Part shown: positions 3,689-51,537 of the stretch, piece after piece
How positions within the stretch are numbered: position 1 is the stretch's first letter
Layout of the letters: each line of letters opens with the position of its first letter
NCBI GenBank assembly: GCA_964583685.1
Contig: CAZOVJ010000001.1
Location: forward strand, 4,033-68,032
Length of the DNA: 64,000 bases
Direction of reading: 5' to 3'
DNA from: an uncultured Gammaproteobacteria bacterium
GTDB taxonomy: Bacteria > Patescibacteriota > Microgenomatia > UBA8517
Notes under the pieces: model-generated
Told to the model about the DNA's origin: nothing
Seen by the model: only the letters and a program-made list of their open reading frames with translations
Database searches by the model: none
Made by a program: the position numbers and the translations under genes

Positions 3689-3725
<37 letters not shown>

Positions 3726-5348: not shown

Positions 5349-5979
5349 AAGTTCCGACCCGCACGAAAGGCGTCACGAACTAGCAACTGTCTTGAGCATT
5401 CACTCGGCGAAATTGCGATGGCTGTGAAGACGCGGCCTACTTGTACCAGGACGAAAAGACCCCGTGGAGCTTCACTGCAGTTTGACATTGCTTTCATACT
5501 TTTGAATTGTCAAGAATAGGAGGGAGTCCCGCTTTTGCGGGACGACAGTGTGATACCTCTCATTCAAGAGTGTGAGGCTTACTTGGGTCCGATGGAGACT
5601 CGGACAGGGAAAGTGTTAGATGGGCAGTTTTTCTGGGGCGGAACCCTGCTAAAAGGTAACGCAGGGGTACAAAGGTTGGCTTGGTCCGAATGGAAACCGG
5701 ACTGAAAGTATAAAGGTTTAAGCCAGCTTGACTGCGAGGCCGACGGGCCGAGCAGGTGCGAAAGCAGGTCTTAATGATCCTCCGATCCTCAATGGGTGAG
5801 GACGGAGCTTAACGGATAAAAGCTACCCCGGGGATAACAGAGTAGTCGCGCCCGAGAGTCCATATCGACGGCGCGGATCGCTACCTCGATGTCGGCTCAC
5901 CGCATCCTGGGGCCGGAGAAGGTCCCAAGGGTTGGTCTGTTCGCCCATTAAAGCGGTACGTGAGCTGGGTTCAGAACGT

Positions 5980-24350: not shown

Positions 24351-24884
24351 GTGTATTGTAAATATATGGGAAGTTTTAAGCAAGTTTTTCTAGTGGGACT
24401 ACTTATTTTAACCATATTTGCAATTTGCTATACATTCAGCCGTTATACTTGCTACGATAGTTCAAAATCATTATTTACTCAAGGTTTCTATCGAGGGCAG
24501 AAAACTAGTTTTGAATATGTTTATGATGAAATGGAAAGAAAAACCGTGCTATCAGGTATCCTTGTTTCTTACGAGCCATCCTCAAACAATCCTACAATAA
24601 CTTTGAGTACATCCCCCACAAATTATTGTCTTCCAGTTGGCAGAAAAAAAGTAAAGTTAAGTTTCTCTGGAATTAAAACGCTTTTTTTACTCCTGGAAAA
24701 AGAGGACCAAACCACATTCCGGTGGAGAGCCTTGGCGGCCGAAAAGCTACGAAACATACTTAAACGTGGGGTACTTGTAACCGTTCAATTCGCCGATGGT
24801 CAGGAAAAAACAGTAGTTGACGCAAAATTGGGCGCTGCATCTCATGTAATTATTCATAAGTATAAAGAATCTGAACAAAAATGA
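24351..24884 (+). CDS. small membrane-anchored hypothetical protein
   Basis: ORF track 177 aa. Hydrophobic N-terminus. Stop overlaps the next start (ATGA). Confidence 0.4.
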   Translation: MYCKYMGSFKQVFLVGLLILTIFAICYTFSRYTCYDSSKSLFTQGFYRGQKTSFEYVYDEMERKTVLSGILVSYEPSSNNPTITLSTSPTNYCLPVGRKKVKLSFSGIKTLFLLLEKEDQTTFRWRALAAEKLRNILKRGVLVTVQFADGQEKTVVDAKLGAASHVIIHKYKESEQK

Positions 24885-39000: not shown

Positions 39001-41272
39001 AGTAGATGCGGAAGGAGTCGATAATGCCATTGAAGTAACCACCGGGGCTTCCTCCGGAATTCCATCTACCAATATCTCTGGTGTTTGTTGTTATAGTGCC
39101 TCCAGCATCATTATCACTGCCTTCAAGCACTCCGTTTAGATAAACATACACATTGGCTCCATCTCTTACACCTACAGCGTGATACCAAGTGCCATTTTGT
39201 AAAGTTGTAGTTCCTTGGGCTAAAGCAGAATTTCCTCCGGTGTCGTTTCTAGTGATAAAAGCAATGTTGCTACTCGGTGTATAGAGTTGACCCAAAATCG
39301 AATCGCTATCTGTTGTGCTTCTTTGGGCAAAAATACTTTTTGTTGTACTAGGATCAGATGTTCTAAACCAGGCTTCTACAGTATAAGTAGTTCCAGATAA
39401 TGGATTGTTGGAGAGTGAAACATAATCATTACTTCCGTCAAACATCAATGCTGCCGGATTATTTTGAGGCCAGCGGCCGTTATTGGTTGTCCAGCCGCTT
39501 CCGGCAACAACATCCTGGCCTGAGGTATTAGAGAAACTATTGAGTGTACCAGTGTTTCCTTGACCAGATGAGTCAGCTGCAGAAGTATCTGAAGTCTCGT
39601 TGAACTTCCAAAAGCCTGCAAGATTACTAGACGAATATGGAGTCTCGCCATCGCCGGTTTGGACGCCTGACTCTGTCCATTCAAGTGAGTCAAGGCTGGC
39701 TACTAATGTTCCCAGGTCAATTGAATCCGAGGTATAAACAGCATATGGCCGGCGCTGGGCAGCAAGCTTAATTTCTTCCGGTGTCCGGGCAATATTGGAG
39801 ATGCGAACTTCGTCAATAAGGCCATCAAAACGATAAGAAGCCCAACTTGTTCCTCCAGCTCCAAGGTGTAGTGCTCCCCCGTTGGTACCTGCTGTTGCTG
39901 TGACAGTTTTTACAGATTTACCATCTACATAGAAAATGCCTGTAGTCCCCGAACGAGTATAAGCCACATGTTTCCATTCGCCGTCTTCTTTAATTTCATG
40001 TCCACTGTAAGCCCAAGTGCCTCCACCCCAAAAACTTAATTCATTAGTGCTGTTATTTCTTAGAGCGAAAATGAAGCCGTTACTGCCACCAGTATATGTT
40101 CCTACAATACCCTTCGAATCGTCGGCAATATTGTCTGGGTTGATCCAAACTTCTACTGTATAGTCACCTGATAGGGTGAATTGATCGCTATCCGAAATAG
40201 AAACATAGTCGGTATCAGCATCGAAACTACCAGAATGAGACCCGAGCTTGGCAGGGGTTGAAAATGTGGGGGTTCCTTGAGCAGTACCATTGTGGCCATT
40301 TTTAGAACTATCATTCCAGCTGTTATTCATATGCCAAAGGCCGACGGTGTGCCCGTCGGCCGGTAGCTCTTGATAATAGGTTTCCAGGCTGGGAGAGGCG
40401 CCTGAACCAGTGTCTTTTACCCGGTTGAATTGGCCGTTAGCAAACTCGCTTGATTCATCATGAACAACCGTTGGATCAATGAGTACAGGAAATACTCGTT
40501 CCGGAGAATTAAGCCAATTCGGGTCAATGGTAATAATGGCGCTATAATTTTTTGTTTCTAAATCCCTTTTGATTAAGATTTGTACATTATCGGTCTGAGA
40601 AGTCTTTGCATCATAAGCAAAAGGCTTTTCAAAATGGAAGAGGTAATTGCCATCTTTATCAAAAAAAGCGGTGCCGCTAATATTTTCGGTGATATATTGG
40701 GGAATTGCCCCTTCTGTTTTTAAGCCAAAGGGAAACCTAACAATTTGAGAAGGCTGGTTGATGATTATTTCTTCTTTGACTCCCAGGGGAATAGTTTGAT
40801 ATTCAAAGTCTATGTTTGGATATACATTTTTAAAAAGCAGTTTTTTATCTTCTTTAATTGGAACTTGCAGTTTTTTATTGACGCCGGCAGGAACAAAAGC
40901 GATTTTATTGTTCTCGGAAGTGCTAAATTCAACAATTGGCAGATTTGAATTTTTATCGCCTAACTGAACCTGAAATTTTTTGGATTTGGCCGTATAAAGA
41001 TAAAGCGAGTTTTGGGCAGCCATTTTCAGTTTAGGGGCCCGAGGAATCGAAGCCCATTTTTTATAAAGGGGAGCAATAATGGCGATAAGTAAAATACTAA
41101 TTCCGAAAGTAAGGGCTATTCTTTTCTTTCTCCGGCTGCTATGTTTGCATTTCCAGACTACCAGCTTGAGCAAATAATGGCAGTATTTGAGATAATAAGA
41201 AAAATAGGCAGGAATTTTCTTCTTACTGATTTTACCTCTAGGGTATACGCGAGGCCTTGACATATTAGTCAT
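33020..41272 (-). CDS. giant cell-surface protein (2750 aa): N-terminal TM anchor, at least 5 LamG/concanavalin-like domains, Gly-rich beta-rich region, C-terminal FN3-like domain
   Basis: ORF track. Recurrent LamG signatures (FDG.IDEVRISN.ARS/T..EI about five times). Gly runs (GGGGGGDKH, GGGGGGYGTNG). FN3-like WQDNSGDETGFDIQR near the C-terminus. Confidence 0.8.
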   Translation of the reverse strand: MTNMSRPRVYPRGKISKKKIPAYFSYYLKYCHYLLKLVVWKCKHSSRRKKRIALTFGISILLIAIIAPLYKKWASIPRAPKLKMAAQNSLYLYTAKSKKFQVQLGDKNSNLPIVEFSTSENNKIAFVPAGVNKKLQVPIKEDKKLLFKNVYPNIDFEYQTIPLGVKEEIIINQPSQIVRFPFGLKTEGAIPQYITENISGTAFFDKDGNYLFHFEKPFAYDAKTSQTDNVQILIKRDLETKNYSAIITIDPNWLNSPERVFPVLIDPTVVHDESSEFANGQFNRVKDTGSGASPSLETYYQELPADGHTVGLWHMNNSWNDSSKNGHNGTAQGTPTFSTPAKLGSHSGSFDADTDYVSISDSDQFTLSGDYTVEVWINPDNIADDSKGIVGTYTGGSNGFIFALRNNSTNELSFWGGGTWAYSGHEIKEDGEWKHVAYTRSGTTGIFYVDGKSVKTVTATAGTNGGALHLGAGGTSWASYRFDGLIDEVRISNIARTPEEIKLAAQRRPYAVYTSDSIDLGTLVASLDSLEWTESGVQTGDGETPYSSSNLAGFWKFNETSDTSAADSSGQGNTGTLNSFSNTSGQDVVAGSGWTTNNGRWPQNNPAALMFDGSNDYVSLSNNPLSGTTYTVEAWFRTSDPSTTKSIFAQRSTTDSDSILGQLYTPSSNIAFITRNDTGGNSALAQGTTTLQNGTWYHAVGVRDGANVYVYLNGVLEGSDNDAGGTITTNTRDIGRWNSGGSPGGYFNGIIDSFRIYSRALGADEILSNYQSGQIEFQTRTSADNSSWEAWKPTANETQIDSMDNPLNWATPSASIWEGVPIATSSSSLAIEGNGSLKTILGAPQVDSHTVALWHLDETNGDLEGDDVFDETANNNDGELYGTAPGPEPVESIFGKARDFNGTDDYVDCGDDNIWDFGSGNYAIEAWVKRNSFNTNDMIIGKDDDGSGNRQFFMLIHSDDDIRFSYTDTGDNQIYLDSSSTITDNEWHYLAGQRNGDSFEIYIDGVLDNSGTTSGTHGTMDSTVTNLLIGKRHYSGYTDEFDGIIDEVRISNVARSAEEISEAYRAGRDHRLGRTISSTDLSSKGKLPFYIAADRPGTYLETTIGESAYTNNQPDGNTKGLWHLEENQPIFYDYFLTDTTGRYSWETVDTNAPTNSHAWDSSNHWLHVLTGDNDAENATAYADIPTSGYAKIVFIKRLDYPTDNVQSLYLFQDANNYYQFNWQGSGYSTQGVYKVVGSSTVDSSAERGTVDTNGNEYTIEMWWTPSSMKLAIDGTVRKDITTTNTTAINPSYFKFYSSQINFDWESIEIHSLDEIKDSSGNGNHGYPSGTTFLQGKIGKARDLNGSSNYINVNDSASLDMTDSYTTEAWVRFDTTSSNQVIYAKGKSGDVYNGGLDWTTTDNFRFYGSPTGGAAVTYTLTPNTGEWYYIVGVFDNSGNTSKLYINGAEVASATDNGTPTANNYPLWIGARKSSTGGVENPFDGTIDEVRISDTARTAAQIRQAYEIGQRTHPITIDFAAKLDANDIKGTSEANAKTDTSITIDATHFGLTDKGSNLYEDDKIIVRENYGGTEYIAQGTVSSITTSTGAVTVDSWTGTVPNPDTGVCGGSDTHCFTSNASVFKWQREYWDISDPPDNQLDTCTQLTLRVTNADEGRTVWLDDFESASDYMATPGGSSISSTAQRYFQYRAIISNHSPSPSLTSVTLNYTENNPPGATTLSDAYLHDNLKTNDTTPEIRFAATDPESDNLTYQIQWDTDTSFPSPSSAVSDTNPGFTNVDDGGDDDPFNSGDTISYTFQAALTNNTTYFYKVHAKDPGGSNTYGNWSSVRSFTIDTSLTNDAWFQTHADQFSTDTLANGATVDDSSNYVYTLSSFQIDNADTASNWVSSDTGDLLVEQETSLKQEGTGSVKLSNNFTGDGADGAITVSSNKNLNTDPIASGRSVADAEAFQVSSIGTNIITVTGTGTDGTAASSLSNSISSDDEIILINLRDSSSTYTNVGNYEFCQVSSISSATITCNINIQKTYGESSNSDLTGQNVVVQRVPNYTNVTINNGITLTVNSWNGTYGGLIAFRANGTVTVTGTIDTYEKGYRGGSGSSGDNYGYQGESTSGTGSKSMSYKQQGGGGGGDKHVPAAHNASGGGGGGYGTNGSNGKPCTQGGGVGAGGHTYGSSSLDKLYLGSGGGEGGSKDPRSGGNGGNAGGIVFIGTDTISVSGYIKANGRNGWPGQPSEPYTAGGGGGSGGSILLQANTATLGSSLVKAGGGSGGSGYVWGGAGGSGGSGRIRVEADSITGTTSPAASTTGSPSGDALNETATLTKSATDLSITSFITFWARSDRTGQFMRFQFGESASDEQTYDITINSADTWEKKTWDISGISAADRDAVTKFAYKVTNADSAFAFYFDDIQATYSSGTIMSTSITVVNIYSSASHWKQLLFTDDEANGDIKYKIYYDDSGTPTIVPDGDLTDNSSGFDTSPVDLTSLDTTSYPILYVQGTLTYSGGSPQLQDWQLSLNTKPNTPSLDLPSDTASNQILYTVLKTTTTDADSDYLHYKIELDTVNTFDSANLQTFDQTESQTGWSGQDAQSETAYASGTQATYTIQTALDNNTTYYWRSYAIDPAGTNLWSSTQETPYSFTTAAKPNAPSHCLIEEAVDDSYLNLKWQDNSGDETGFDIQRNESAAGFTSLTTKPADSTSHQDSTISQTNTYAYRVRAYKTVGGETLYSGWCTTATVSLESATFEFQGVNIQGVDLQ

Positions 41273-41324: not shown

Positions 41325-41897
41325 TTAGCTACACCCCGCCTTTGAGTGGGGATGATTTTTGAAAACAGGCATTTTGTTTATTTCGGTTTTGAAAATCCCC
41401 TTTTTCATTTCCCATACTTCTTTGCCCAAATGATGTTTGGCGTAGATGACAATTACTTGTTTTTTCTGTTTGATCAAATATCTATAAAGGGGGGCGAAGT
41501 CACCATCACCAGAAAAGAAGATATATGAATCGAATTTATTGGGATTGAGCAAAATCTCCATACATATTTCTAAATCAAAGTCGCATTTCCTTTTGAAAAT
41601 GGGAGGATGATCATTGATTTTTATATGTTTGACCGGCTTGGTGCGGAGATGGAAGCCAATGTTTTTGATTCTGGTTAAAAAGGCTTTGGATTTTGGGTGA
41701 TTGTCGGTGCCGTAGTAAAAATTGATCTGCTTGATTTTTTTATATGATTTGAGATAGCGGAAGAGTTTGATAGGGGAGATGGCTTTTTTAAGCGAATTTC
41801 TCCAGCCATAAACGTTGGCCCAATCAATAAATACAGCAGTTTTGCCTTTAAGCTTCAAGAATGTTGTTGATTTTTGTTTGTGTTTTAAGTTTTTCAT
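41325..41897 (-). CDS. NYN/LabA-like (DUF88) predicted ribonuclease
   Basis: AVFIDWANV ... GTDNH ... FFSGDGDFAPL motifs typical of NYN domains. 190 aa. Confidence 0.6.
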   Translation of the reverse strand: MKNLKHKQKSTTFLKLKGKTAVFIDWANVYGWRNSLKKAISPIKLFRYLKSYKKIKQINFYYGTDNHPKSKAFLTRIKNIGFHLRTKPVKHIKINDHPPIFKRKCDFDLEICMEILLNPNKFDSYIFFSGDGDFAPLYRYLIKQKKQVIVIYAKHHLGKEVWEMKKGIFKTEINKMPVFKNHPHSKAGCS

Positions 41898-41949
41898 TTC
41901 TGTTTTATCACACCTCTAAGGTGTCTCCATTTTTCACCTTAGAGGTGTG

Positions 41950-44900
41950 CTATTCTGTGACATCAATAATCCACCAGTTGAATTCCACGTCTACTTCTAG
42001 GGCCTGATTAAATCCGACGACAAAGTTGGGCTTACATTCCTGAGTTTCTTCAGTACAGCTATTCTTGCTCTTGACATAGAGAACATTGTTCAGAGTAGAG
42101 GAGGTGGGTGTAACATAAATCAGGCTGTAGTCGGTCACCCTTGGATTCTTGATGGTTATTTCTCGACTGCCAGCCGGAATCATGGCCTTGCCGGCCGTGG
42201 CATTGGTTTCCGTCACCAGGCCAGTGAGCAAGGTGGCCGAGGTGGTTGCTTCGCTGCCGGCAATAATTAGCTTATCAGTGCTGACGGTTTTGAACTGGCC
42301 AGAGCCTGAGGCATCAATACTGGCAATCTCATTGCCTTCCGCATCAAGCAGATTGAGTAATTTTCCAAACCCGCCTGCCGGCGAGGCAGGCCCGCCATTT
42401 TCCTGTTCACTTTCTCTCAGAGTCAGGCCCGAGGCTTCAATCTGGCCCCCAACATAAAGATTGCCTGTAATTTGCATGTTTCCATCAGTGTCTATCCTCA
42501 CCTTACCGGCCATGATTTCCAAAGGCGCCAGGGCCAGGGACTGTAATTTCAAAGGAGCAGAGAGGGTGTCAATAGAATTAATGGTCAGTGATTGGTCATC
42601 GGTCATTTGTGATTGGATTATTAAATCGGGGCCGATGGTCAGAGATTGAGAAAGTGATAGGCTATTCATGGCAGCCGTTTCAGTGACATAAAGATTGTTA
42701 AGAGCCAACTCATCGAGATTGCTAGAATCTGTGGCTGTATTAATATTCCAATCCGTGGAATCAGCCAAAAGTGATTGCTCTTCTTCTGCCTCCCTCAATA
42801 ATTCTTCAATTTCCTCAAGCGTGATAGACTGCTCACTGTCCACTGTTGACAGTTCACTGGTAACTATTTCATCGGCGTAGATTTTTTTAGCATGTAATTC
42901 TCCAGCAATAGTGGCATCGCTGGCTACTGCTAGCTGGTTGCTGCTCATCTTTCCACTAAAGCTGGCCTGCCTCGCCTCAAGGTCTCCGGCAAGGCGGGCG
43001 TTCCCCTCAGCATCAATTGAGGCTACTTCCTCGCCTCCTTCACCTTTAACAATTAACTTTCCAAAGGCCGATTCCGAAGCATCCGGGCTGCTGTTATCCA
43101 AATCAATGACCAAATTACCATCAGGCACGGGCGAGATGAGCTCGGTTTCAATCAAGGCTGTCTTTATTCCCACCGCCCGCAAGCCATCAACAGCCAATTC
43201 TCTGGCCGTTATTGCCCCGGCTTTGATATTTTCTGTTACTTCAAGGGCAAAGGTCTTTATCTCTTTTGCAGATAGGGTTTCATAAATATTGACAACAGCG
43301 GCCGAAAGGGTTTTACTAGCCAGATTGCCAAGTTGGCTTAATTGTTCAAGAATGGCTTGGCTTTCACCTTCAGAGATAGTGATCGGACTGCTGTCTTCCA
43401 ATTTGCTGTGCCATGCACCGAGTCCCAGAAGATTGCCGGTCTGGTCAATGGCATAGGTGCCGGCTTCTCTGTCAGTAATCTTGACCTGATCAAAAACTTC
43501 ATCCCCAGTATCAACGCCAGGGTTGTAGTAGGAAAGGTTGACAAAAGCCATGACTTGACCAGAGTAGCCATTGAATTCTTCCATGGCCTTGCCAATAATC
43601 GGTCCAGCAGAATTGGCTTTCATGGCTACACCAGGGACAGAAGAGCTAGTCAAGGGGTCGCCGCGCTTAATTACGCCACCTTCAAGGCTAACCTTGACCG
43701 GAACCCGGCCGGCCAAAGCAACAGGGTAGGCATCTGACTGCTGACGAGTGCCATCAATGTTACCCAGTACCATGCCCGGTTCAGAGGAAACAATACCAAT
43801 GCTGCTGGGGTCATAAGCTTGGCTAGATTTGTTAATCTTTTTGTCTTCATTAAAGTTAATGGCAACAACATCACCCGCCCCAAGAGGCTCGGTGCTTCGG
43901 TAGTATTCGGCCAAATCAGCACCAGCCCCAGTCCTTCTGCAATAAATGGCCCACCAAAACAAGCGAAGATATGATCCTGAGCCAGGAACCTTACCCCGAA
44001 CCCTGAAAGTTACGGTTCCGCTGCTGGGCATCGTGACGCCCGTCGCCGAGAGGGCAATCGGGGAGCGTGATGTGAAGCTGACCTCAGACCCAGAGATGGA
44101 CTGCGAGTTGGTCACGTCGTAGAGTTCAAGGTAGCCCGTGCCGTCCTGATCCATCTGGGTGAGTACCCAGAAGTCGAAGGTCCAATGTGTGCCTAGACCG
44201 CCCATGTTCACTGTCACACTCGATTGGGAGGCGAAGTCTGCATAGGTGGCTGATGTGGTTACTCTTTGATTTGGGTCAGTGGCGACGTATTGGATATCGG
44301 GGGCTGTTTCCAGGTCTCCTTCATCTATACAACCGTCGCACTCAAAGTCGGTTGCAGTAACAGTACCACTAACTTCAAGAGCGGTTGAGGGATTCGTTGT
44401 GCCAATTCCTACCTTGCCAGAATTATCGATGACAAATTTAGGCGTTCCTGAAGCGGAAGCGGTAAAGATGTCTCCACCTTTGGTTTGATTGACCATTAGG
44501 GCCGCCTGGCCAAGATTGGCCGTATTCTCAATCAACCAACTGGAAGCAGACAGAGTATTATAAGCAGTGGTCGGAGTATCGGTGAAGGTGATGGTTGATG
44601 TTCCCAAGGTTTTATTGGCAATAATTAAGCCATCCAGAAACAAAACTCCGTCAATTTCCAGGTCGCCGCTGATAAGCAAGTCATCTGCGGCAGTCAGGTT
44701 GCCTGAGTGGCCAGTTGTTGCTGTGCCAAATCGAGAATAGGCGGCGGTTGTTGTCGAGCCGACCTGCAGAGCATCATTGATGCCGACCCTACCAGAGTGC
44801 TCAATAACGAATTTGGTTGTTCCCGAGGCCGAGGCTGTAAAGATGGCCTGGTCACCGGTTTCATTGAAGATTGCTAAGGCTTTACCGACAACAGCTCCAT

Positions 44901-47900
44901 CAACATGAAGTTTGGAGATTGGAGAAGCGGTGCCAATACCGACCTGACCGGCAAAATAGGCGTCATTGACATTAATCAGATTGTCGCTGGCCAGAGAAAT
45001 GTTGTCAGATGCAGCGTTGATGGTAATATCCCCGGAGTCGTTGGAAATTGTCGAGGTTGCATTATAAAGCTTGAGAACACCCGCGTTGGTTAAAGCCATT
45101 TTTGGCGTGCCCGAAGCAGAGGCTGTTAGTATATCTCCATCTTTGGTTTGGTTGACCATCAAGGCAGCTAGACCAACATTGGCCGTGTTTTCAATCAGCC
45201 AACTGGAAGCAGAAAGTGAATTGTAGGAAGTGGTCGGCGTATCGGTGAAGGTGATTGTTGATGTTCCCAGGGTTTTATTGGCAATAATTAAGCCATCCAG
45301 AAACAAAACCCCATCAATTTCCAGGTCGCCGCTTACAAGTAAATCATCAGCAGTTGTCAGATTACCGGCATGACCCGTGGTAGCAGTGCCAAATCGGGAA
45401 TAGCTAACATCAGCTGCCGCCCCTCCAGCCTGAAGGTCTCCAGACAGGCCTACATGGAAAGTAGCAGAAGAAGTAGAGGTTCCTCCTACAGCTAGTTCAT
45501 AGACACTCTCATGCCTGGGAGCAATGACATTGGAGGAGAGTTGCCAGTAACCAGAGAAACTAGTTTCACCAGCAGCTATCTCTCTAACATAATTAAGGGC
45601 ATCAACCAAGGCTCTGTCTCCAGAGGGGAAAGGGCTGAGGTCTGTATCAGAGACAGTTAAAGGAATATTGGTCGCATTATCATCTGTAAACAAAAGATCT
45701 CCTACAGAAGAGAGAGTAAGATTACCAGAGGTTGTTGTAGAAAAGGTTAGATTTGCATCTGAGCGGGTAATTAAACCTCCATCGGCAGTAATGGTACCAG
45801 TAGCTGTCAAAGCATCATCTACATTGACTGTGCCTCCAGCAGAATCAAGGGTTAAGTTACCAGAAACAGTATCTATTTCCTCGTCTCCGGTTACTCCTAC
45901 CTTAATATTACCAGCTGTTACTCCAGCAAAAGAGGGATTGGCATCAGTGGTTAAGTCCTGATTAACATAAGTATCATCTTCTACTGTTAAGGTCTTACTA
46001 GCAGCAGAGAAGGTGAGGGTACCAGCATGACCATCTCCAATGGTAAAATCTTCATTTAAGGTCAGGCTTCTATCACCAGCAGCTACCAGGAAATTCAAGG
46101 TTCTGTCTGCTACTGTTTCATTTTCATTCCAAACAAGACTTAATTGATGGGAATCATTAGTATCCTGTATCTGCAGATAATCAGCCAAAACATAGGAAGA
46201 GAAACTACCATAACCTCCAGTGGTAGTAATATTACCAGTGGCTGTCAAAGTGCCATTAACACTCAAGGCACCAGAAGCCAGTTGTATTAAATCAGTATCA
46301 GTAGAGATGCCAATATCTCCACCGTTAACTTGAAGATTATCAGTAATAGCTAGATAACTACCAGTAACATCAATAGTTAAGTTTCCAGCATTACTAACAG
46401 TAAACCTGGCATCATATGTATCATCAGTATGTGTCAGTCTTAATTGTTCTGAGCTTGAAGATACTTCTAATTTAGCATCTGGACTTGAATCTCCAATGCC
46501 AATATTGTCTGCTCCCGCATCAACAAAGAACAAATTAACATCTGTATCTCCTTCTATTCTCAAATCAGCATCATTGCCTTGTTCATTAAAGACAGCACCT
46601 CCATCAGCATGGAAGATAATATCTGCAGAAGAGCTGGCCGTGTCGCCAATAAGAACATCAAGGGTAGTATTGATAGGATAGAGAGCGCCGCTACTTTCAG
46701 TCCACCAGCCCTCACCACCTCCGCTTTGGGCTACCCAGGATAAAGTGCCTGTACTATTGGTGGAAAGAATATCACCAGAAGAACCATCACTCCCAGGCCA
46801 GGTATATACCACTGTATTAAATTGAGTAGTCCCTATATTGGCCAGATTGCCTGAATTATCTATCCTGTTAGTAGAATTAGTCTGAATTACTCCTCCAGAG
46901 GAATCAATATTACCAGTAGCTGTCAAAGCATCATCTACATTGACTGTGCCTCCAGCAGAATCAAGGGTTAAGTTACCAGAAACAGTATCTATTTCCTCGT
47001 CTCCGGTTACTCCTACCTTAATATTACCAGCTGTTACTCCAGCAAAAGAGGGATTGGCATCAGTGGTTAAGTCCTGATTAACATAAGTATCATCTTCTAC
47101 TGTTAAGGTCTTACTAGCAGCAGAGAAGGTGAGGGTACCAGCATGACCATCTCCAATGGTAAAATCTTCATTTAAGGTCAGGCTTCTATCACCAGCAGCT
47201 ACCAGGAAATTCAAGGTTCTGTCTGCTACTGTTTCATTTTCATTCCAAACAAGACTTAATTGATGGGAATCATTAGTATCCTGTATCTGCAGATAATCAG
47301 CCAAAACATAGGAAGAGAAACTACCATAACCTCCAGTGGTAGTAATGTTGCTATCAGAGGTAATACTGCCTACATCACTAATATTACCTGAACTATCTAT
47401 ATCAAAAGCACCATTAGCTGCCTTCACTGCTCCTGTATTGGCTGCAACATGGAAGGTAGCAGCTGCAGTAGAGGTTCCTCCTATCCCCAAATCATGCCAA
47501 AGGGCATTCTTGGGATGAATAGTTTCTCCGGTTAAGGTCCAATATATTCCTCCAGCTACAGCCACATCAGGATCTACCCAAGAAAGAGTGCCTGTACTAT
47601 TGGTGGAAAGAATATCACCAGAAGAACCATCACTCCCAGGCCAGGTATATACCACTGTATTAAATTGAGTAGTCCCTATATTGGCCAGATTGCCTGAATT
47701 ATCTATCCTGTTAGTAGAATTAGTCTGAATTACTCCTCCAGAGGAATCAATATTACCAGTAGCTGTCAAAGTGCCATTAACACTCAAGGCACCAGAAGCC
47801 AGTTGTATTAAATCAGTATCAGTAGAGATGCCAATATCTCCACCGTTAACTTGAAGATTATCAGTAATAGCTAGATAACTACCAGTAACATCAATAGTTA

Positions 47901-49731
47901 AGTTTCCAGCATTACTAACAGTAAACCTGGCATCATATGTATCATCAGTATGTGTCAGTCTTAATTGTTCTGAGCTTGAAGATACTTCTAATTTAGCATC
48001 TGGACTTGAATCTCCAATGCCAATATTGTCTGCTCCCGCATCAACAAAGAACAAATTAACATCTGTATCTCCTTCTATTCTCAAATCAGCATCATTGCCT
48101 TGTTCATTAAAGACAGCACCTCCATCAGCATGGAAGATAATATCTGCAGCTGAAGTAGAGGAACCACCAATGGCTAAATCATCACTGGTGGTTACTGGCG
48201 AAAGAACTCCAGAAATTCGTTGCCAAAAGCTGGAGACAGAACCTCCACCTAAATTAACCCAACTAGTACCGTTCCAAATATAGAGTGAGGTATCTGAAGT
48301 ATTAAAAACAAGCGTTCCTTGACCTATTGCGTTGGGGTTTGAAATAAATCGACCTAGTTGTACTTGTCCATCAAAGCGAGTATTACCCTCATCCACAAAA
48401 AGGGCCATAGCTTCGATGGCTCCATTATAACGTTTTAGTTTAAGGGTAGAGTAAATAGAATTTGAATATCCACGCTCGTCAAGAGTCAAGGTTAGGGCAT
48501 CGGAGAGGCCGGAGGCTTTTTTGGTAATTGTTGCACTACTACCAGCTTGCTGGCTTATTGAGAAATTTCCTGAAGTTTGAGAATAGCCAGTTATATTTTT
48601 TAACTTTCCCCCAGAGGTTAGGCGAGTAGTTTCGGCAGTTGAAATATCCTTTTCAACATTCAGATCTCCGGCAATTTGGGTATTACCGAGACTATCAACG
48701 CTGAAGCGGGTTTGGTTTGGAGAGCCGCTTTCTAGCTTTATAAGGTTGTAACCACTGGCATTATTGGCGACAATGCCATAATAAAGTGAGCCGGAGATTA
48801 AATTTGGTGCTTGGGCATTAAGAAAATTTCCCCTATAACCCTCAAAAAGGAAATGGGCGGTGCCAGAACCATCTGGATTTATTTCAATGTTTCCATCTGA
48901 GCCGGTAGGCGTGCTGATTGTTATTGCCTGGCCTTCAATTAAAAGATTGCCATCTGTTGCCTTTACGGCTGGAGCTTCCGAGGCCAGGAGAAGTTCGCCA
49001 TTCTCTGAAATAAGAGGGATTGTAGTTGGGCCGGCTTCAATAGAGGGATAGAATCCTTGCAAGCTTGCTGCTGTGTTGGCGGTCGAGACTGGAATAAGCC
49101 TGTCTGGTTCGCCTTCACTGGTGACCGCCGACAAAAACAGTTTTTCATTTTCAAAAAAGAGTTCAGTTGGAACATCATCTAATAATATCAAAATATCTCC
49201 ATTTGTATCAGGAGTAATTTGTTTTTGTTCAGAGGTCCAGACAGATTGATTTTTGTCTTCATCTTTATAGAGCCTGAAGGTTATTGATCGAGTAGTTGTA
49301 ATGGGAGCGTTTGCTTGATTTTTCAAGTTCATCTTGGCAAAAATTGTCCAGGGAGAAAGAATAGCTATTTCTTGCTCGCCAGAAGGCTCAATCTTTGTCG
49401 GTTCAGCTTGCTCAGCTGGAAAGACAGGCAAAAAGGGGATAGGAAGTTGTAATTTTTGGACAAGAAGGAAGATTAGGACAGCTGACCCGACGATTATACT
49501 ACCTCGGAAAAGATTAGTCAGATTAAACCGAGGAAGTCTGACCGGTTGAGGTTTTACCTCAGGAATTTGCTCAAAAGGATTTTGCTCAAGATGTCCTTCC
49601 TTCCGGGCCCAGTTAAAGAAGCGCTTTAAAGAAGACATTTTGCGCTTTGTGGTCGCAGCCGAGGAACGTTCGGCAATCTCTTCTTTATATTTTTTTACTA
49701 ATTCTGGTGTGATATTACTAAAATGGTCCAT
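41950..49731 (-). CDS. giant surface protein (2593 aa): N-terminal phage-integrase SAM-like domain, TM anchor, large repetitive beta-rich ectodomain with tail-fibre-like motifs
   Basis: N-terminus ITPELVKKYKEEIAERSSAATTKRKMSSLKRFFNWARKEGHLEQNPF matches the integrase core-binding fold. TM segment LFRGSIIVGSAVLIFLLVQKL. Internal ~1.3 kb near-identical DNA repeats. IGIGTTNPSTALEV / GIGTASPISKLHV tail-fibre-like motifs. Confidence 0.8.
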   Translation of the reverse strand: MDHFSNITPELVKKYKEEIAERSSAATTKRKMSSLKRFFNWARKEGHLEQNPFEQIPEVKPQPVRLPRFNLTNLFRGSIIVGSAVLIFLLVQKLQLPIPFLPVFPAEQAEPTKIEPSGEQEIAILSPWTIFAKMNLKNQANAPITTTRSITFRLYKDEDKNQSVWTSEQKQITPDTNGDILILLDDVPTELFFENEKLFLSAVTSEGEPDRLIPVSTANTAASLQGFYPSIEAGPTTIPLISENGELLLASEAPAVKATDGNLLIEGQAITISTPTGSDGNIEINPDGSGTAHFLFEGYRGNFLNAQAPNLISGSLYYGIVANNASGYNLIKLESGSPNQTRFSVDSLGNTQIAGDLNVEKDISTAETTRLTSGGKLKNITGYSQTSGNFSISQQAGSSATITKKASGLSDALTLTLDERGYSNSIYSTLKLKRYNGAIEAMALFVDEGNTRFDGQVQLGRFISNPNAIGQGTLVFNTSDTSLYIWNGTSWVNLGGGSVSSFWQRISGVLSPVTTSDDLAIGGSSTSAADIIFHADGGAVFNEQGNDADLRIEGDTDVNLFFVDAGADNIGIGDSSPDAKLEVSSSSEQLRLTHTDDTYDARFTVSNAGNLTIDVTGSYLAITDNLQVNGGDIGISTDTDLIQLASGALSVNGTLTATGNIDSSGGVIQTNSTNRIDNSGNLANIGTTQFNTVVYTWPGSDGSSGDILSTNSTGTLSWVDPDVAVAGGIYWTLTGETIHPKNALWHDLGIGGTSTAAATFHVAANTGAVKAANGAFDIDSSGNISDVGSITSDSNITTTGGYGSFSSYVLADYLQIQDTNDSHQLSLVWNENETVADRTLNFLVAAGDRSLTLNEDFTIGDGHAGTLTFSAASKTLTVEDDTYVNQDLTTDANPSFAGVTAGNIKVGVTGDEEIDTVSGNLTLDSAGGTVNVDDALTATGNIDSSGGVIQTNSTNRIDNSGNLANIGTTQFNTVVYTWPGSDGSSGDILSTNSTGTLSWVAQSGGGEGWWTESSGALYPINTTLDVLIGDTASSSADIIFHADGGAVFNEQGNDADLRIEGDTDVNLFFVDAGADNIGIGDSSPDAKLEVSSSSEQLRLTHTDDTYDARFTVSNAGNLTIDVTGSYLAITDNLQVNGGDIGISTDTDLIQLASGALSVNGTLTATGNITTTGGYGSFSSYVLADYLQIQDTNDSHQLSLVWNENETVADRTLNFLVAAGDRSLTLNEDFTIGDGHAGTLTFSAASKTLTVEDDTYVNQDLTTDANPSFAGVTAGNIKVGVTGDEEIDTVSGNLTLDSAGGTVNVDDALTATGTITADGGLITRSDANLTFSTTTSGNLTLSSVGDLLFTDDNATNIPLTVSDTDLSPFPSGDRALVDALNYVREIAAGETSFSGYWQLSSNVIAPRHESVYELAVGGTSTSSATFHVGLSGDLQAGGAAADVSYSRFGTATTGHAGNLTTADDLLVSGDLEIDGVLFLDGLIIANKTLGTSTITFTDTPTTSYNSLSASSWLIENTANVGLAALMVNQTKDGDILTASASGTPKMALTNAGVLKLYNATSTISNDSGDITINAASDNISLASDNLINVNDAYFAGQVGIGTASPISKLHVDGAVVGKALAIFNETGDQAIFTASASGTTKFVIEHSGRVGINDALQVGSTTTAAYSRFGTATTGHSGNLTAADDLLISGDLEIDGVLFLDGLIIANKTLGTSTITFTDTPTTAYNTLSASSWLIENTANLGQAALMVNQTKGGDIFTASASGTPKFVIDNSGKVGIGTTNPSTALEVSGTVTATDFECDGCIDEGDLETAPDIQYVATDPNQRVTTSATYADFASQSSVTVNMGGLGTHWTFDFWVLTQMDQDGTGYLELYDVTNSQSISGSEVSFTSRSPIALSATGVTMPSSGTVTFRVRGKVPGSGSYLRLFWWAIYCRRTGAGADLAEYYRSTEPLGAGDVVAINFNEDKKINKSSQAYDPSSIGIVSSEPGMVLGNIDGTRQQSDAYPVALAGRVPVKVSLEGGVIKRGDPLTSSSVPGVAMKANSAGPIIGKAMEEFNGYSGQVMAFVNLSYYNPGVDTGDEVFDQVKITDREAGTYAIDQTGNLLGLGAWHSKLEDSSPITISEGESQAILEQLSQLGNLASKTLSAAVVNIYETLSAKEIKTFALEVTENIKAGAITARELAVDGLRAVGIKTALIETELISPVPDGNLVIDLDNSSPDASESAFGKLIVKGEGGEEVASIDAEGNARLAGDLEARQASFSGKMSSNQLAVASDATIAGELHAKKIYADEIVTSELSTVDSEQSITLEEIEELLREAEEEQSLLADSTDWNINTATDSSNLDELALNNLYVTETAAMNSLSLSQSLTIGPDLIIQSQMTDDQSLTINSIDTLSAPLKLQSLALAPLEIMAGKVRIDTDGNMQITGNLYVGGQIEASGLTLRESEQENGGPASPAGGFGKLLNLLDAEGNEIASIDASGSGQFKTVSTDKLIIAGSEATTSATLLTGLVTETNATAGKAMIPAGSREITIKNPRVTDYSLIYVTPTSSTLNNVLYVKSKNSCTEETQECKPNFVVGFNQALEVDVEFNWWIIDVTE

Positions 49732-49858
49732 ATTAAGGATGTCTAAAATCTAGCCACTTTTTCCGTCCGCCTAGAGTACTTGGCCAGCTAGAGGCAGTTG
49801 TGGTGTTCTTGAGGTTGATACCTTTTAATGTTGTTTGTGGCAGTTTTGTCATGGACAG

Positions 49859-50368
49859 TTATTGGATACGAGATGCTGAATTTTCAGCTTCTAGCCAAGA
49901 AATGAATTGTTTTATATCAGAAAGATAGTTTTTGATAGTATTGTGAGATACTTTTTCGCTTTGGAGATGGTTTTTGAATGAGCCAGCAATTGACTGTGAG
50001 AAGTCTTTGGAGGGTAGAGAGATCTCTCCCGAAGAGGGAATGTTGCTAATTTCTTCGGTAAAGTTGTAGTCTATGGTCTGAATTCCCTGAAGAAAACGAC
50101 CGAAATGACGGAGAGTGGACAACCGACGATTAATGGTTTTGTTGGCAATCTTATTTTGGACAAGAAAATTTTTATATTCCTGAGCCAGCTTTTTGGACAG
50201 ATAGGGAAGGATGTCATCTAAGCCTTCGGCCAAGGCGCCCCAATTACGGGCCTTGAGTAAAATCCAGCCGGTAAAATGGGAAAGGTCTGAACGATAAAAC
50301 TTTAAGCTTTTTGGAGAAATGCCAATTTCTTCTGTGAGATAGGTTTCAAATTTCTTTTTGATGGGCAT
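49859..50368 (-). CDS. protein made of tandem phage-integrase N-terminal SAM-like (core-binding) domains, no catalytic domain
   Basis: Two repeats of the motif seen at the N-terminus of the giant gene: ...SPKSLKFYRSDLSHFTGWI...TINRRLSTLRHFGRFL and ...VSHNTIKNYLSDIKQFISWL. 169 aa. Confidence 0.55.
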   Translation of the reverse strand: MPIKKKFETYLTEEIGISPKSLKFYRSDLSHFTGWILLKARNWGALAEGLDDILPYLSKKLAQEYKNFLVQNKIANKTINRRLSTLRHFGRFLQGIQTIDYNFTEEISNIPSSGEISLPSKDFSQSIAGSFKNHLQSEKVSHNTIKNYLSDIKQFISWLEAENSASRIQ

Positions 50369-50954
50369 GGTTAGATCGAGAGTAAATTATACTGATTATA
50401 CTAATTATACTATTTCTAAAAGGCCTAAAAGAGTTTGTCAAGGGGCATTTTAGCTCAAAATTAATTTGAATCTATTAATTTTTCACGCATGATGATAGTT
50501 TAATTTCCGCGGGCAAATTTGCCTATCTCTTTATATTAAAATATGTCAATCTATTATCCTATAAGAAGGAATTCTTGCTTAAAAACTTTTAAAACACGTG
50601 CCTGGCTTGAGGCTTGCGGTAATCTGCGGAAAAAGAGATTTTAATGAAGAATTTAAATTGAGATTGCGCAAATTGAGCTGATTTACTGGCTATTTATCTT
50701 TTAGCAGCTCATTATCTTAAGTGCTAGGAAAAATCATGTTTGAAAATGGCCAAGAAATAGGAGTTTCTTTATTTTTTAATCCCTAAACTTTTCTTGCTTA
50801 ATAATTGAGCGACAATATAAACAACAATCAAAAAGGCGATGAGTTGGAGACTGTAATGGGCCAAGGGGCTTTTTAGTCGAAAAAAAGGCAAAAGCGACTG
50901 AGATACCGAGAATTAAGCTGTTGACAATGAATTGCAGTCGGGCAGAAAGCATTT

Positions 50955-51218
50955 TTATCTACTCAAACCTTCAAAAATCCACCTTTTGATAAGTGATTGG
51001 TAAGGAATATCTATTTTATGAGCTTTGATTTTGACTCTCTCGATTAGAGTTTGTGGCAAGCGAATAGTTATTGGTTTGCTTGTTAATTTTAAGTTTGGAA
51101 ACTTCCAATTCTCCAATGATTTGTATTCCACATATTCAGTTGAGTCGACCTTTTGCCAGAACCTGCGTTCTTCTGCCTCTGATTTAAATTTTGGAATCCT
51201 TTTTAGTCTTTTCTTCAT
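50955..51218 (-). CDS. brnA: BrnA antitoxin (RHH)
   Basis: KPITIRLPQTLIERVKIKAHKIDIPYQSLIKRWIFEGL matches the BrnA C-terminal signature. Overlaps upstream brnT. Confidence 0.7.
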   Translation of the reverse strand: MKKRLKRIPKFKSEAEERRFWQKVDSTEYVEYKSLENWKFPNLKLTSKPITIRLPQTLIERVKIKAHKIDIPYQSLIKRWIFEGLSR

Positions 51219-51537
51219 ATATACTCCTTTCTCTTTTATTGGCAGCTCTTCCTGAGATTACCCTGATTTTATCTTTTCTAATGGTAAAAACTACAAATAG
51301 TATCTTCTCTTCAAAATCTTTACCTATTGCTATAAATCGCTTTTCTTCCTGGCTATGTTTTATGTCCCTTTCTATTCGTAAATTGTCGTCTAAAAAAACT
51401 TCCTCTGTTTGATTCGGTGTAATTCCGTGCTTTTTATAACTTTTGTCTATGTTGTTTTTATCCCATTCAAAACCCTTAGTTTTACCAAAATCAACCACTG
51501 TACATGTATTATATGTACATAGCGAATCTTTTGTCAA
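51184..51537 (-). CDS. brnT: BrnT ribonuclease toxin (DUF497)
   Basis: FEWDKNNIDKSYKKHGITPNQTEEVF...RFIAIG...IRVISGRAANKRERSIYE matches the BrnT consensus. Confidence 0.7.
   Translation of the reverse strand: MTKDSLCTYNTCTVVDFGKTKGFEWDKNNIDKSYKKHGITPNQTEEVFLDDNLRIERDIKHSQEEKRFIAIGKDFEEKILFVVFTIRKDKIRVISGRAANKRERSIYEEKTKKDSKI

What the first reader, a model, noticed from the sequence alone, without database searches (positions are those of the whole stretch)
41325..50368. Giant membrane protein with a cytoplasmic phage-integrase SAM-like N-terminal domain, next to a standalone tandem integrase-SAM protein and an NYN nuclease
Seen in sequence.
- The 2593-aa ORF begins with ~55 residues matching the N-terminal core-binding (SAM-like) fold of tyrosine recombinases: ...TTKRKMSSLKRFFNWARKEGHLEQNPF.
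- One predicted TM helix follows, then a ~2500-aa repetitive ectodomain with tail-fibre-like motifs.
- Immediately upstream, on the same strand, is a 169-aa protein made of about 1.5-2 copies of the same domain and nothing else.
- Downstream is an NYN/LabA-like nuclease.
- No recombinase catalytic domain (R..HxxR..Y) exists in any of these ORFs.

Inference. The DNA-binding module of integrases has been recruited as the cytoplasmic end of a giant surface protein. This could be a membrane-tethered regulator or scaffold (ToxR/CadC-like logic) that couples host-cell contact to gene regulation in an episymbiont. The small tandem-domain protein could be a soluble partner or competitor.
Basis: partly seen in the sequence, partly recalled or inferred. 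Interest (0 to 1): 0.75.

Follow-up and report, generated by a model that had tools for sequence, protein, structure and literature searches.

The report
Giant fibre with split DNA-binding anchor
A 2593-residue surface protein of a Woesebacteria-like ultra-small bacterium carries an integrase-type DNA-binding module on its cytoplasmic end, and that module is encoded in two pieces: the 169-residue upstream gene ends exactly half-way through a four-helix domain and the giant gene begins with the other half, an arrangement conserved across many genomes and not found described in the literature searched.

Summary
All genes are on the minus strand.

- **Small ORF (49859-50368):** one complete integrase core-binding (CB, "SAM-like") domain plus only helices A-B of a second.
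- **Giant (41950-49731):** starts with only helices C-D of that second domain, followed by one N-in transmembrane helix and an acidic 2,500-aa ectodomain.
- **Conservation:** the split is present in all 23 homologous loci that include downstream DNA. Spacing and reading frame vary between loci, so this is a true two-gene fission, not an error, pseudogene or recoding event.
- **Fused versus split:** both forms occur in closely related, syntenic loci, so the 169-aa protein is most likely the giant's own cytoplasmic subunit rather than an independent factor.
- **Family size:** at least 705 clusters, mostly labelled "hypothetical" or wrongly "XerD".
- **NYN gene:** it is real, but no homologue is present in any fetched locus, and two relatives carry an unrelated gene in its slot.
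- **No recombinase catalytic domain** exists here.
- **Untested:** DNA binding and ToxR-like signalling. A strongly conserved promoter with three 9-bp repeats upstream is a candidate operator.

The parts
49859..50368 (-). Small ORF, 169 aa. It is the soluble, basic (pI 9.5) N-terminal piece of the split tandem core-binding (CB) module.
   Evidence: Homologues are present upstream of a split-type giant in all 23 loci that include downstream DNA.
50084..50362 (-). CB domain 1, complete (small ORF aa 3-95).
   Evidence: Pfam Phage_int_SAM_1 profile positions 3-79 of 83. AF2 helices 3-15, 19-42, 50-56, 59-71 and 76-95, pLDDT 93-98. Motif N80-R-R-L-S-T-L-R-H88 is invariant in the 24-sequence alignment A1.
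49880..50008 (-). CB domain 2, helices A and B only (small ORF aa 121-163). The ORF stops 6 residues later, in the B-C loop.
   Evidence: Pfam SAM_4 profile positions 4-34 of 85. AF2 helices 121-137 and 142-163. Invariant positions in alignment A1: F131, L135, S141, T144, K146, N147, Y148, D151, F155, W158.
49732..49858 (-). 127-nt spacer between the two halves. It has stop codons in all frames, and the giant lies in a different frame from the small ORF.
   Evidence: No RNA structure (z -0.01), no Rfam match, and no promoter- or terminator-like site on this strand. In relatives the two ORFs range from a 28-nt overlap to a 15-nt gap, or the spacer is ~405 nt and holds an inserted ORF.
41950..49731 (-). 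Giant ORF, 2593 aa. It is the membrane-anchored piece: CB2 helices C-D, a linker, a TM helix and the ectodomain.
49600..49707 (-). CB domain 2, helices C and D (giant aa 9-44).
   Evidence: Pfam SAM_1 profile positions 40-83 of 83. phrog_1 E 5e-8. AF2 helices at pLDDT ~96. Invariant positions in alignment A2 (concatenated numbering; subtract 169 for the giant's own numbering): Y184, T196, R199, F207, W210, A211.
49438..49515 (-). Single transmembrane helix (giant aa ~73-98), acting as an N-in signal anchor.
   Evidence: It is the only Kyte-Doolittle window of 1.6 or more in the 2593 aa. K/R count is 3 on the N flank and 0 on the C flank. A TM segment is conserved in homologues.
41953..49437 (-). 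Acidic ectodomain (aa 99-2593, pI 4.1). It is repetitive and probably a trimeric fibre.
   Evidence: The segment 44266-44457 (aa 1759-1822) weakly matches MAT fibre chains 8ojn/8ond.
50371..50515 (-). Conserved upstream control region: TTGACA at 50436-50441, three tandem 9-bp AGTATAAT(N) repeats at 50386-50410, and an inverted copy of the motif in a second conserved block at about 50480-50515.
   Evidence: Conserved in all 25 homologous loci. The triple repeat is unique in the 64-kb window, with 0 expected by chance, and occurs at most once per fetched locus: an exact match in 15 of 33 loci, each just upstream of the small ORF. No consensus RNA structure.
33020..41272 (-). Second giant, 2750 aa, with an N-terminal hydrophobic (probable TM) segment and four Laminin_G_3 domains. 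It is a downstream neighbour also seen in relatives.
   Evidence: A LamG giant sits in the same position in L027 and L033.
30892..32880 (-). Wzy_C / TPR membrane protein, 662 aa. It recurs as a downstream partner of CB-anchored giants.
   Evidence: It is 46% identical over its full length to the gene directly after the giant in the non-syntenic locus L031.
41325..41897 (-). NYN-domain gene, 190 aa. It is present here but is not a conserved member of the locus.
   Evidence: Pfam E 6e-19. No homologue in any of 33 fetched loci. In L027 and L033 its slot holds a different, mutually homologous ~195-aa TM protein.

Best explanation
**What is shown**

The small ORF and the giant ORF are the two halves of one ancestral gene. 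That gene encoded a bitopic, N-in giant surface protein whose cytoplasmic N-terminus is a tandem pair of tyrosine-recombinase core-binding (CB) domains with no catalytic domain.

In this Woesebacteria/Microgenomates lineage the gene is cut in the loop between helices B and C of the second CB domain. The 169-aa product carries CB1 plus helices A-B of CB2. The giant starts with helices C-D of CB2, followed by a ~25-aa linker, one TM helix and a ~2,500-aa acidic ectodomain.

**What is inferred**

- The two polypeptides reassemble non-covalently. The A-B hairpin docks on the C-D hairpin to rebuild the four-helix CB2 bundle.
- The 169-aa protein is therefore the giant's own membrane-tethered cytoplasmic subunit. 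Co-transcription, and in most relatives translational coupling, would keep it stoichiometric with the giant.
- Fused and split versions replace each other in closely related, syntenic loci. The module's job must therefore be compatible with permanent tethering, and release of the small protein cannot be essential.

**What is inferred with less confidence**

- The ectodomain is a trimeric, phage-tail-fibre/MAT-like adhesive fibre.
- The basic CB module binds nucleic acid, most likely DNA, at the inner face of the membrane. It would act either as a membrane-bound transcription factor (ToxR-like logic) or as a nucleoid-to-envelope tether.
- A candidate target is the conserved triple 9-bp repeat that lies between the operon's own promoter and its start codon.
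For: **Complementary halves**
- Pfam places the small ORF's C-terminus on profile positions 4-34 and the giant's N-terminus on positions 40-83 of the same domain models.

**Contiguous homologues**
- P0123 is a syntenic orthologue. P0124-P0126 (P0125 is labelled Levyibacteriota), P0177, P0175, P0192, P0198 and others carry CB1 plus an unbroken CB2, then TM and ectodomain.
- The concatenated window halves align colinearly to them, with 18 invariant columns spread over both halves.

**Structure prediction**
- Small ORF plus giant aa 1-105: mean pLDDT 86, with helices C-D at ~96.
- CB2 alone, built from the two pieces: pLDDT 86.7, pTM 0.79.

**Conservation of the split**
- All 19 genome loci with downstream DNA, plus L027, L028, L031 and L033, have the stop in the B-C loop and a next ORF that starts with 'MPxLPxISPELVKxYQ...KRK..SL.RFFDWA'.
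- The two ORFs range from a 28-nt overlap to a 15-nt gap in most loci, and all three frame offsets occur.
- In L004 and L010 an unrelated ORF sits between the halves.
- Of 182 giant relatives, 123 start with the C-D half and 21 have the fused tandem.

**Lability of fission and fusion**
- The N-terminus of fused P0123 is 57-61% identical to split small proteins.
- Fused P0177 is 64% identical to the split small ORF of the syntenic locus L031.

**Topology and charge:**

**Fibre**
- Peptidase_S74 in relative P0133. S74, LamG or beta-helix domains are on record for other relatives.
- Weak MAT-fibre match in the window's own protein (PMC10769870).

**Candidate operator:**
Against: - No physical evidence that the two polypeptides associate. 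AF2 was run on a covalent concatenation, which cannot prove an intermolecular complex.
- The MSA over helices C-D was shallow (4 fused homologues).
- DNA binding is inferred only from fold, basic charge and retained family-signature residues. CB-like four-helix bundles can also serve protein-protein roles.
- The window's own giant N-terminus scores just below Pfam's gathering cut-off (22.2 against 22.3 bits).
- In the window the spacer is 127 nt with no obvious ribosome-binding site, so coupling and stoichiometry are less certain here than in relatives.
- Trimeric-fibre status of this particular ectodomain rests on E ~2e-3 matches.
- The conserved upstream repeats resemble -10 boxes and could be pure promoter architecture.
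Confidence: 0.72

Rival explanations
1. **Releasable regulator (refined version of the first reader's idea).** The giant's C-D hairpin sequesters the small protein at the membrane. A signal such as host contact or fibre strain releases it, and it then acts in the cytoplasm as a soluble DNA-binding regulator. This would be a proteolysis-free analogue of anti-sigma/sigma or RsgI/SigI pairs.
For: - The split is maintained in most close relatives (123 of 182).
- The small protein has one complete CB domain of its own.
- A conserved operator-like triple repeat lies at the operon promoter.
Against: - Fused, non-releasable versions replace split ones in closely related syntenic loci. Release therefore cannot be required for function.
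- A released protein would expose half of a hydrophobic four-helix bundle.
- No sensor or transducer element is identifiable in the ~25-aa linker.
Confidence: 0.13
2. **Non-nucleic-acid scaffold.** The split and complementation are accepted, but the CB module is not a nucleic-acid binder. It would be a cytoplasmic protein scaffold or plug that helps anchoring, oligomerisation, export or assembly of the giant fibre.
For: - In recombinase synapses CB domains also make protein-protein contacts (own knowledge).
- Giants of this family need an anchor for a signal-anchor TM helix.
Against: - The module is basic (pI 9.5-9.9).
- The most conserved residues are polar or basic positions on helices B and D (N-R-R-L-S-T-L-R-H; K-R-K..S-L), the helices I recall as DNA-facing in recombinase-DNA complexes (the helix assignment is own knowledge, not tested here).
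Confidence: 0.22
3. **Recoding.** The two ORFs are translated as one polypeptide by programmed recoding: stop-codon read-through, frameshifting or ribosomal bypass across the junction.
For: In several loci the stop and the next ATG are in frame and only 3-9 nt apart (for example L005, L007, L009).
Against: - Frame offsets of 0, +1 and +2 all occur, and the two ORFs range from a 28-nt overlap to a 15-nt gap, or 127 or ~405 nt apart.
- The window spacer has stops in every frame and no structure.
- In L004 and L010 a whole foreign ORF lies in between.
- The stop is usually TAA, generally considered the least leaky stop codon (own knowledge).
Confidence: 0.04
4. **Decay or artefact.** The small ORF is a remnant of a decayed integrase, or the split is a sequencing or assembly error or a recent pseudogene.
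For: Sources annotate family members as 'site-specific recombinase XerD' or 'site-specific integrase'.
Against: - The same split occurs in independent assemblies from many samples and at 45-50% protein identity.
- Invariant residues occur in both halves.
- No catalytic-domain trace is present.
- The locus is syntenic chromosomal DNA next to leuS, comEA and comEC, not a mobile element.
Confidence: 0.01

Closest known systems
Core-binding (CB, 'SAM-like') N-terminal domain of tyrosine recombinases (XerC/D, lambda Int, Cre, IntI)
   Different: - No catalytic domain anywhere.
- Two CB domains in tandem.
- Attached to a TM helix and a giant ectodomain.
- The second domain is encoded by two genes.
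Exapted recombinase-derived DNA binders: SPbeta MrpR, phi3T SroF, plant ALOG domain, yeast Ndc10
   Different: - They are soluble proteins.
- MrpR and SroF keep the whole recombinase fold.
- None is membrane-anchored or split.
ToxR / CadC / TcpP-type bitopic one-component regulators
   Same: Same layout: cytoplasmic N-terminal DNA-binding domain, a single TM helix, and an extracytoplasmic domain (own knowledge of these families; layout here).
   Different: - Their DNA-binding domain is an OmpR-type winged helix, not CB.
- Their outside domain is a small sensor (~100-250 aa), not a 2,500-aa fibre.
- DNA binding is not shown here.
Phage tail fibres and Bdellovibrio MAT (mosaic adhesive trimer) fibres, with or without a Peptidase_S74 chaperone
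   Same: - A weak sequence match in the window's giant.
- An S74 domain in relative P0133.
- Mosaic, repeat-rich ectodomains with variable tips such as LamG or beta-helix.
- MAT fibres are surface adhesins (PMC10769870).
   Different: - In the MAT paper the fibres' N-terminal domain is only predicted and is presumed to bind a surface element of the predator (PMC10769870), and phage fibres attach to the virion (own knowledge); here the anchor is an N-in TM helix with a cytoplasmic CB module.
- Trimer formation is not tested here.
Naturally split genes of reduced genomes (for example Nanoarchaeum equitans split reverse gyrase and AlaRS)
   Same: Two ORFs encode consecutive parts of a protein that is contiguous in relatives, and both parts are conserved (own knowledge for the examples; for this case).
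   Different: - The cut lies inside a compact ~90-residue four-helix domain rather than between domains.
- The pieces stay adjacent in one operon.
- Fission and fusion have toggled repeatedly.

Membership tests
Tyrosine recombinase / phage integrase | N-terminal core-binding domain (four-helix 'SAM-like' fold) | tested here: met
Tyrosine recombinase / phage integrase | C-terminal catalytic domain (PF00589) with the R-K-H-R-H/W-Y active site | tested here: not met
   No PF00589 hit at E up to 1 in the small ORF, the giant, NYN or the second giant. XerD tblastn finds nothing beyond helix B of CB2. There is no room in the 127-nt spacer. The 'XerD' and 'site-specific integrase' labels on relatives are therefore misnomers.
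ToxR/CadC-type membrane-bound transcription factors | Cytoplasmic N-terminal DNA-binding domain + single TM + extracytoplasmic domain, N-in | tested here: met
   The layout is met. This is a resemblance in architecture only.
ToxR/CadC-type membrane-bound transcription factors | OmpR-type winged-helix DNA-binding domain | tested here: not met
   The domain is CB/SAM-like, and there is no Trans_reg_C hit.
ToxR/CadC-type membrane-bound transcription factors | Sequence-specific promoter binding and transcriptional control | not testable with these tools
   There is only a candidate operator: the conserved triple 9-bp repeat at 50386-50410.
Split (fissioned) gene with fragment complementation | Two ORFs are colinear with one contiguous domain in homologues | tested here: met
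   Alignment A5 against fused P0123-P0126, with 18 invariant columns across both halves. Pfam profile coordinates are complementary.
Split (fissioned) gene with fragment complementation | Split conserved, with both pieces under constraint (not a pseudogene) | tested here: met
   23 loci have the same cut point. Invariant residues occur in both halves. 123 split-type giants were counted.
Split (fissioned) gene with fragment complementation | The pieces physically reassemble into the native fold | tested here: inconclusive
Trimeric phage-tail-fibre / MAT-type fibre | Trimeric beta-helix or prism shaft, often with a C-terminal Peptidase_S74 chaperone | tested here: inconclusive
   Window giant: only E ~2e-3 matches to 8ojn/8ond at aa 1759-1822, and no S74 hit. 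Relative P0133 has S74 at E 6e-15.
NYN/LabA-like nuclease as part of the system | Conserved co-occurrence with the CB-giant pair | tested here: not met
   The NYN domain is real. tblastn finds no homologue in 33 loci, and an unrelated conserved TM protein occupies the slot in L027 and L033.

The most novel reading that the evidence does not exclude
The fibre would be a trans-envelope mechanical or contact sensor wired directly to DNA.

- A trimeric giant adhesin would bring three split CB modules together under the membrane.
- These modules would bind the three conserved 9-bp direct repeats, plus an upstream inverted copy, at the operon's own promoter and possibly at other sites.
- Host-cell contact would then change transcription or nucleoid attachment without any kinase, protease or second messenger.
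- The intra-domain split would provide a reversible, complementation-based switch point.
Probability: 0.1. Interest if true: 0.85.

Novelty: new variant of a known kind. Interest (0 to 1): 0.62.

Why it matters
**A hidden, mislabelled family**
- Patescibacteria (CPR) devote a large share of their tiny genomes to giant surface proteins of unknown function.
- This analysis defines a large family: 705 clusters at 50% identity match the N-terminal 330 residues, and the proteins are 1,400-5,800 aa long.
- Family members are labelled 'hypothetical protein' or wrongly 'XerD/site-specific integrase'.
- Their shared feature is a recombinase-derived, probably DNA-binding module on the cytoplasmic side of a single TM helix.
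- This gives a concrete, testable link between the cell surface and the nucleoid in organisms thought to live attached to other cells.

**A natural split-domain system**
- A ~90-residue four-helix domain is stably split between a soluble and a membrane protein. Fused and split states interconvert between close relatives.
- This is useful for studying gene fission and fragment complementation, and as a possible protein-engineering part.

**Annotation**
- Small 'integrases' of this type should not be counted as mobile-element markers in CPR genomes.

Tried and rejected
- **Length bias in homologue lists.** The search for homologous proteins returned only hits of about the query's length (150-181 aa for a 169-aa query; 402-573 aa for a 399-aa query). 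The uniform '~170 aa' list is therefore not evidence of a conserved stop. I verified the stop directly on DNA of 23 loci instead.
- **Misaligned giant N-termini.** In A3, MAFFT placed the giant N-termini on helices C-D of CB1 instead of CB2. This illustrates the homology but would corrupt the MSA, so P0121 and P0122 were dropped (A4, A6).
- **The 127-nt spacer as an RNA element, intron or bypass signal.** Rejected: fold z-score -0.01, no Rfam family, and no promoter or terminator motif on that strand.
- **The conserved upstream region as an RNA leader.** RNAalifold finds 0 consensus pairs, so it is a DNA-level element.
- **NYN as a system component.** Rejected.
- **Decayed integrase.** Rejected.
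- **comEA/comEC synteny as a functional link.** Not pursued. It holds for the window-type loci but not for L031 and L032, so it is probably ordinary gene-order conservation.
- **PDB sequence searches of the ectodomain.** The membrane-proximal 213 aa and the last 716 aa gave nothing usable. PHROGs gave nothing for the ectodomain.
- **PF26696.** Listed by the source index for some relatives, but not reproduced by hmmscan on P0291.
- **afdb50 fold search.** The library was unavailable.
- **Literature.** Five full-text searches and a check of the giant-gene preprint found no description of CB-anchored giant proteins.

Full report
**1. What is at the coordinates**

All genes of the finding lie on the minus strand:

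| Gene | Coordinates | Length |
|---|---|---|
| Small ORF | 49859-50368 | 169 aa |
| Giant | 41950-49731 | 2593 aa |
| NYN-domain ORF | 41325-41897 | 190 aa |
| Second giant | 33020-41272 | 2750 aa |

The second giant carries four Laminin_G_3 domains. The window is ordinary chromosomal DNA of a Woesebacteria/Microgenomates-like Patescibacterium. It holds rRNA and tRNA genes, rho, radA, leuS, comEA, comEC and a sigma-70 gene. The same contig occurs in a JGI metagenome and in two Logan assemblies.

**2. The key correction: one domain is shared between the two ORFs**

Pfam gives the small ORF a strong Phage_int_SAM_1 hit (60.8 bits). It has a complete domain at aa 6-93. Its second match covers only the first third of the models (SAM_4 positions 4-34 of 85, at aa 130-160).

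The giant's aa 4-46 match only the last half (SAM_1 positions 40-83 of 83). The score is 22.2 bits against a cut-off of 22.3. PHROG's integrase profile supports the match at E 5e-8.

The small ORF therefore ends after helices A-B of a second core-binding (CB) domain, and the giant begins with helices C-D. Between them lie 127 nt with stops in all frames, and the giant is in a different frame from the small ORF.

**3. The two halves form one domain**

- *Contiguous homologues exist.* P0123 is a fused orthologue in a syntenic locus (leuS-comEA-comEC upstream). It reads straight through: '...FVTWAEKASPGNSFSDISTDLVKKYQ...'. Others carry two full CB domains, then a TM helix and a 1,400-3,800-aa ectodomain: P0124-P0126 (P0125 is labelled Levyibacteriota), P0175, P0177, P0192, P0198, P0200 and P0204. 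Some relatives have a single CB domain (P0127, P0298, P0233).
- *Colinear alignment.* Window small ORF aa 120-169 joined to giant aa 1-60 aligns colinearly with the unbroken CB2 of P0123-P0126. There are 18 invariant columns across both halves.
- *Structure prediction of the full module.* AlphaFold2 on the small ORF plus giant aa 1-105 gives mean pLDDT 86.1. The giant-encoded helices C-D reach ~96.
- *Structure prediction of CB2 alone.* The 110-residue CB2, built from both pieces, gives pLDDT 86.7 and pTM 0.79 with four helices.

**4. The split is conserved, not an accident**

A scan of one genome per species found 23 loci. In all 19 that include downstream DNA:
- the small ORF stops at the same place;
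- the next ORF on the same strand starts 'MPxLPxISPELVKxYQxEI...S.AT.KRK..SL.RFFDWA';
- a TM helix and more than 1,300 aa follow.

The relation between the stop and the next start ranges from a 28-nt overlap to a 15-nt gap in most loci, and frame offsets of 0, +1 and +2 all occur. This excludes read-through or a fixed frameshift. In L004 and L010 a ~125-aa ORF sits between the halves; I recognise it from memory, untested here, as a four-helix-bundle '23S rRNA IVS protein' type. Four more loci reached from other directions show the same pair.

Both halves carry invariant residues. An exhaustive HMMER search with the giant's first 330 residues finds 705 clusters at E up to 1e-3, with proteins of up to 5,800 aa.

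| N-terminus | Count |
|---|---|
| Starts with the C-D half (split type) | 123 |
| Fused tandem CB | 21 |
| Other CB-containing N-termini | 28 |
| None detectable | 10 |

**5. Fission and fusion are labile**

- Fused P0123 is 57-61% identical in its first 170 aa to split-type small proteins. That is as close as those proteins are to each other.
- Fused P0177 (L032) and split P0190 with its 172-aa partner (L031) sit in syntenic loci. They are 64% identical in the CB part.
- In L031 the small ORF's TGA overlaps the giant's ATG region by 11 nt.

Inference: whatever the module does, it works when permanently tethered. The 169-aa protein is therefore best read as the giant's detachable cytoplasmic subunit, not a separate competitor.

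**6. Topology and ectodomain**

- The giant has a single hydrophobic segment at aa ~73-98. There are 3 K/R before it and none after, so it is N-in. The small ORF has no such segment.
- The cytoplasmic parts are basic (pI 9.5-9.9) and the ectodomain is acidic (pI 4.1).
- The ectodomain contains 96-98% identical internal DNA duplications.
- It gives only weak database matches. Aa 1759-1822 match Bdellovibrio MAT fibre chains 8ojn/8ond at E ~2e-3.
- According to PMC10769870, MAT proteins are trimeric, phage-tail-fibre-like surface adhesins, some of which carry an S74 chaperone.
- Relatives carry Peptidase_S74 (P0133, E 6e-15), LamG or beta-helix modules.
- A trimeric adhesive fibre is therefore plausible but not shown for this protein.

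**7. Neighbours**

- *NYN gene.* It is real but absent from all 33 fetched loci. In L027 and L033 the slot between the two giants holds a different, mutually homologous ~195-aa TM protein.
- *Recurrent neighbours.* The LamG giant is present in L027 and L033. A Wzy_C/TPR membrane protein (window 30892-32880) is 46% identical to the gene right after the giant in the non-syntenic locus L031, where pilin-like genes follow.

**8. A conserved cis-element upstream**

The ~150 nt before the small ORF are strikingly conserved in all 25 loci, even though the proteins are only 45-50% identical. The consensus is:

'GGCtaTTGACAGGCt-N12-cTTTTAATAAT-AGTCTAAT-CAGTATAAT-TCGTATAAT-CTAGCC'

A second block, 'TGCGGtAATTATACTAC...GTGAAA', lies about 100 nt further upstream and contains the same motif inverted.

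- The triple repeat (window 50386-50410) is unique in the 64 kb, with 0 expected by chance. It occurs at most once per fetched locus: an exact match in 15 of 33 loci, each just upstream of the small ORF.
- No consensus RNA structure exists. The element is therefore at the DNA level: a promoter plus operator-like repeats.
- It is a natural first candidate for a binding site of the CB module. It could equally be promoter architecture alone.

**9. Mechanism**

*Shown:*
- a tandem-CB cytoplasmic module on an N-in giant surface protein;
- a conserved split inside the second domain;
- no recombinase activity possible.

*Inferred:*
- non-covalent reassembly of CB2, which tethers CB1 to the membrane;
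- probable nucleic-acid binding, giving either ToxR-like membrane-bound regulation or nucleoid tethering;
- a probably trimeric fibre outside the cell.

Rivals are listed with their tests. They are a releasable regulator, a non-DNA scaffold, recoding, and decay or artefact.

**10. Novelty**

No paper describing this architecture was found. Each component has a precedent:
- CB-domain exaptation (ALOG, MrpR, SroF, Ndc10);
- bitopic DNA-binding regulators;
- split genes in reduced genomes;
- tail-fibre-like adhesins.

I therefore rate it a new variant of known kinds rather than categorically new. It is nonetheless a large, mis-annotated, lineage-wide family with a clear experimental entry point.

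Noticed in passing
window 50371-50515 (minus strand); the same relative position in L004-L033: The non-coding region upstream of the small ORF is strongly conserved across all 25 loci. It contains TTGACA, an AATAAT-like -10 box, three tandem 9-bp AGTATAAT(N) repeats, and an inverted copy of the motif ~100 nt upstream. The triple repeat is unique in the window and has no RNA consensus structure. It is a candidate operator or an unusual promoter.
   Followed up: partly
window 41325-41897; L027:18618-19193; L033:14309-14908: The NYN gene occupies a slot that holds a different gene in relatives. That gene encodes a conserved ~195-aa protein with an N-terminal TM helix; the L027 and L033 copies match each other at E 4e-20. 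NYN looks like a lineage-specific replacement or insertion between the two giants.
   Followed up: partly
window 30892-32880 (minus strand); L031:12312-14231: A Wzy_C (O-antigen-ligase-like) plus TPR membrane protein follows the giants here. A 46%-identical copy follows the CB-anchored giant in a non-syntenic locus, where three prepilin-type (N_methyl) genes come next. It may glycosylate or help assemble the surface fibres.
   Followed up: partly
L004:4475-4884; L010:2859-3262: In two relatives a ~125-aa ORF is inserted exactly between the two halves of the split CB domain. I recognise it from memory, untested here, as a four-helix-bundle '23S rRNA intervening-sequence protein' type. The insertion shows that the junction tolerates ~400 nt of foreign DNA.
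   Followed up: partly
window 2464-6059: The 23S rRNA match spans 3,596 nt for a 2,925-position model, so it carries ~670 nt of insertions. A 151-aa ORF (4852-5307) lies inside it and could belong to an intron or intervening sequence.
   Followed up: no
window 50955-51537 (minus strand): In the gene calls of the identical contig L001, a BrnT-toxin / CopG-antitoxin pair sits between leuS and the small CB ORF.
   Followed up: no
window 44437-48034: The giant's ectodomain contains pairs of 200-300-nt (or longer) segments that are 96-98% identical at the DNA level. Start-to-start spacings are 843, 1116 and 1521 nt. These are either recent internal duplications or a possible source of assembly collapse or expansion.
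   Followed up: partly
L004, L007, L015, L017, L018, L020 (record titles): Several public MAG records that hold this Woesebacteria-type locus are titled 'uncultured Gammaproteobacteria bacterium'. These are almost certainly taxonomic mislabels.
   Followed up: no
window 22293-24314 and 24881-26905; also 12465-15860 and 19505-21223: Four large ORFs of 572-1131 aa have no Pfam hit at all. Two of them are near-equal in length (673 and 674 aa) and lie almost adjacent, so they may be paralogues.
   Followed up: no
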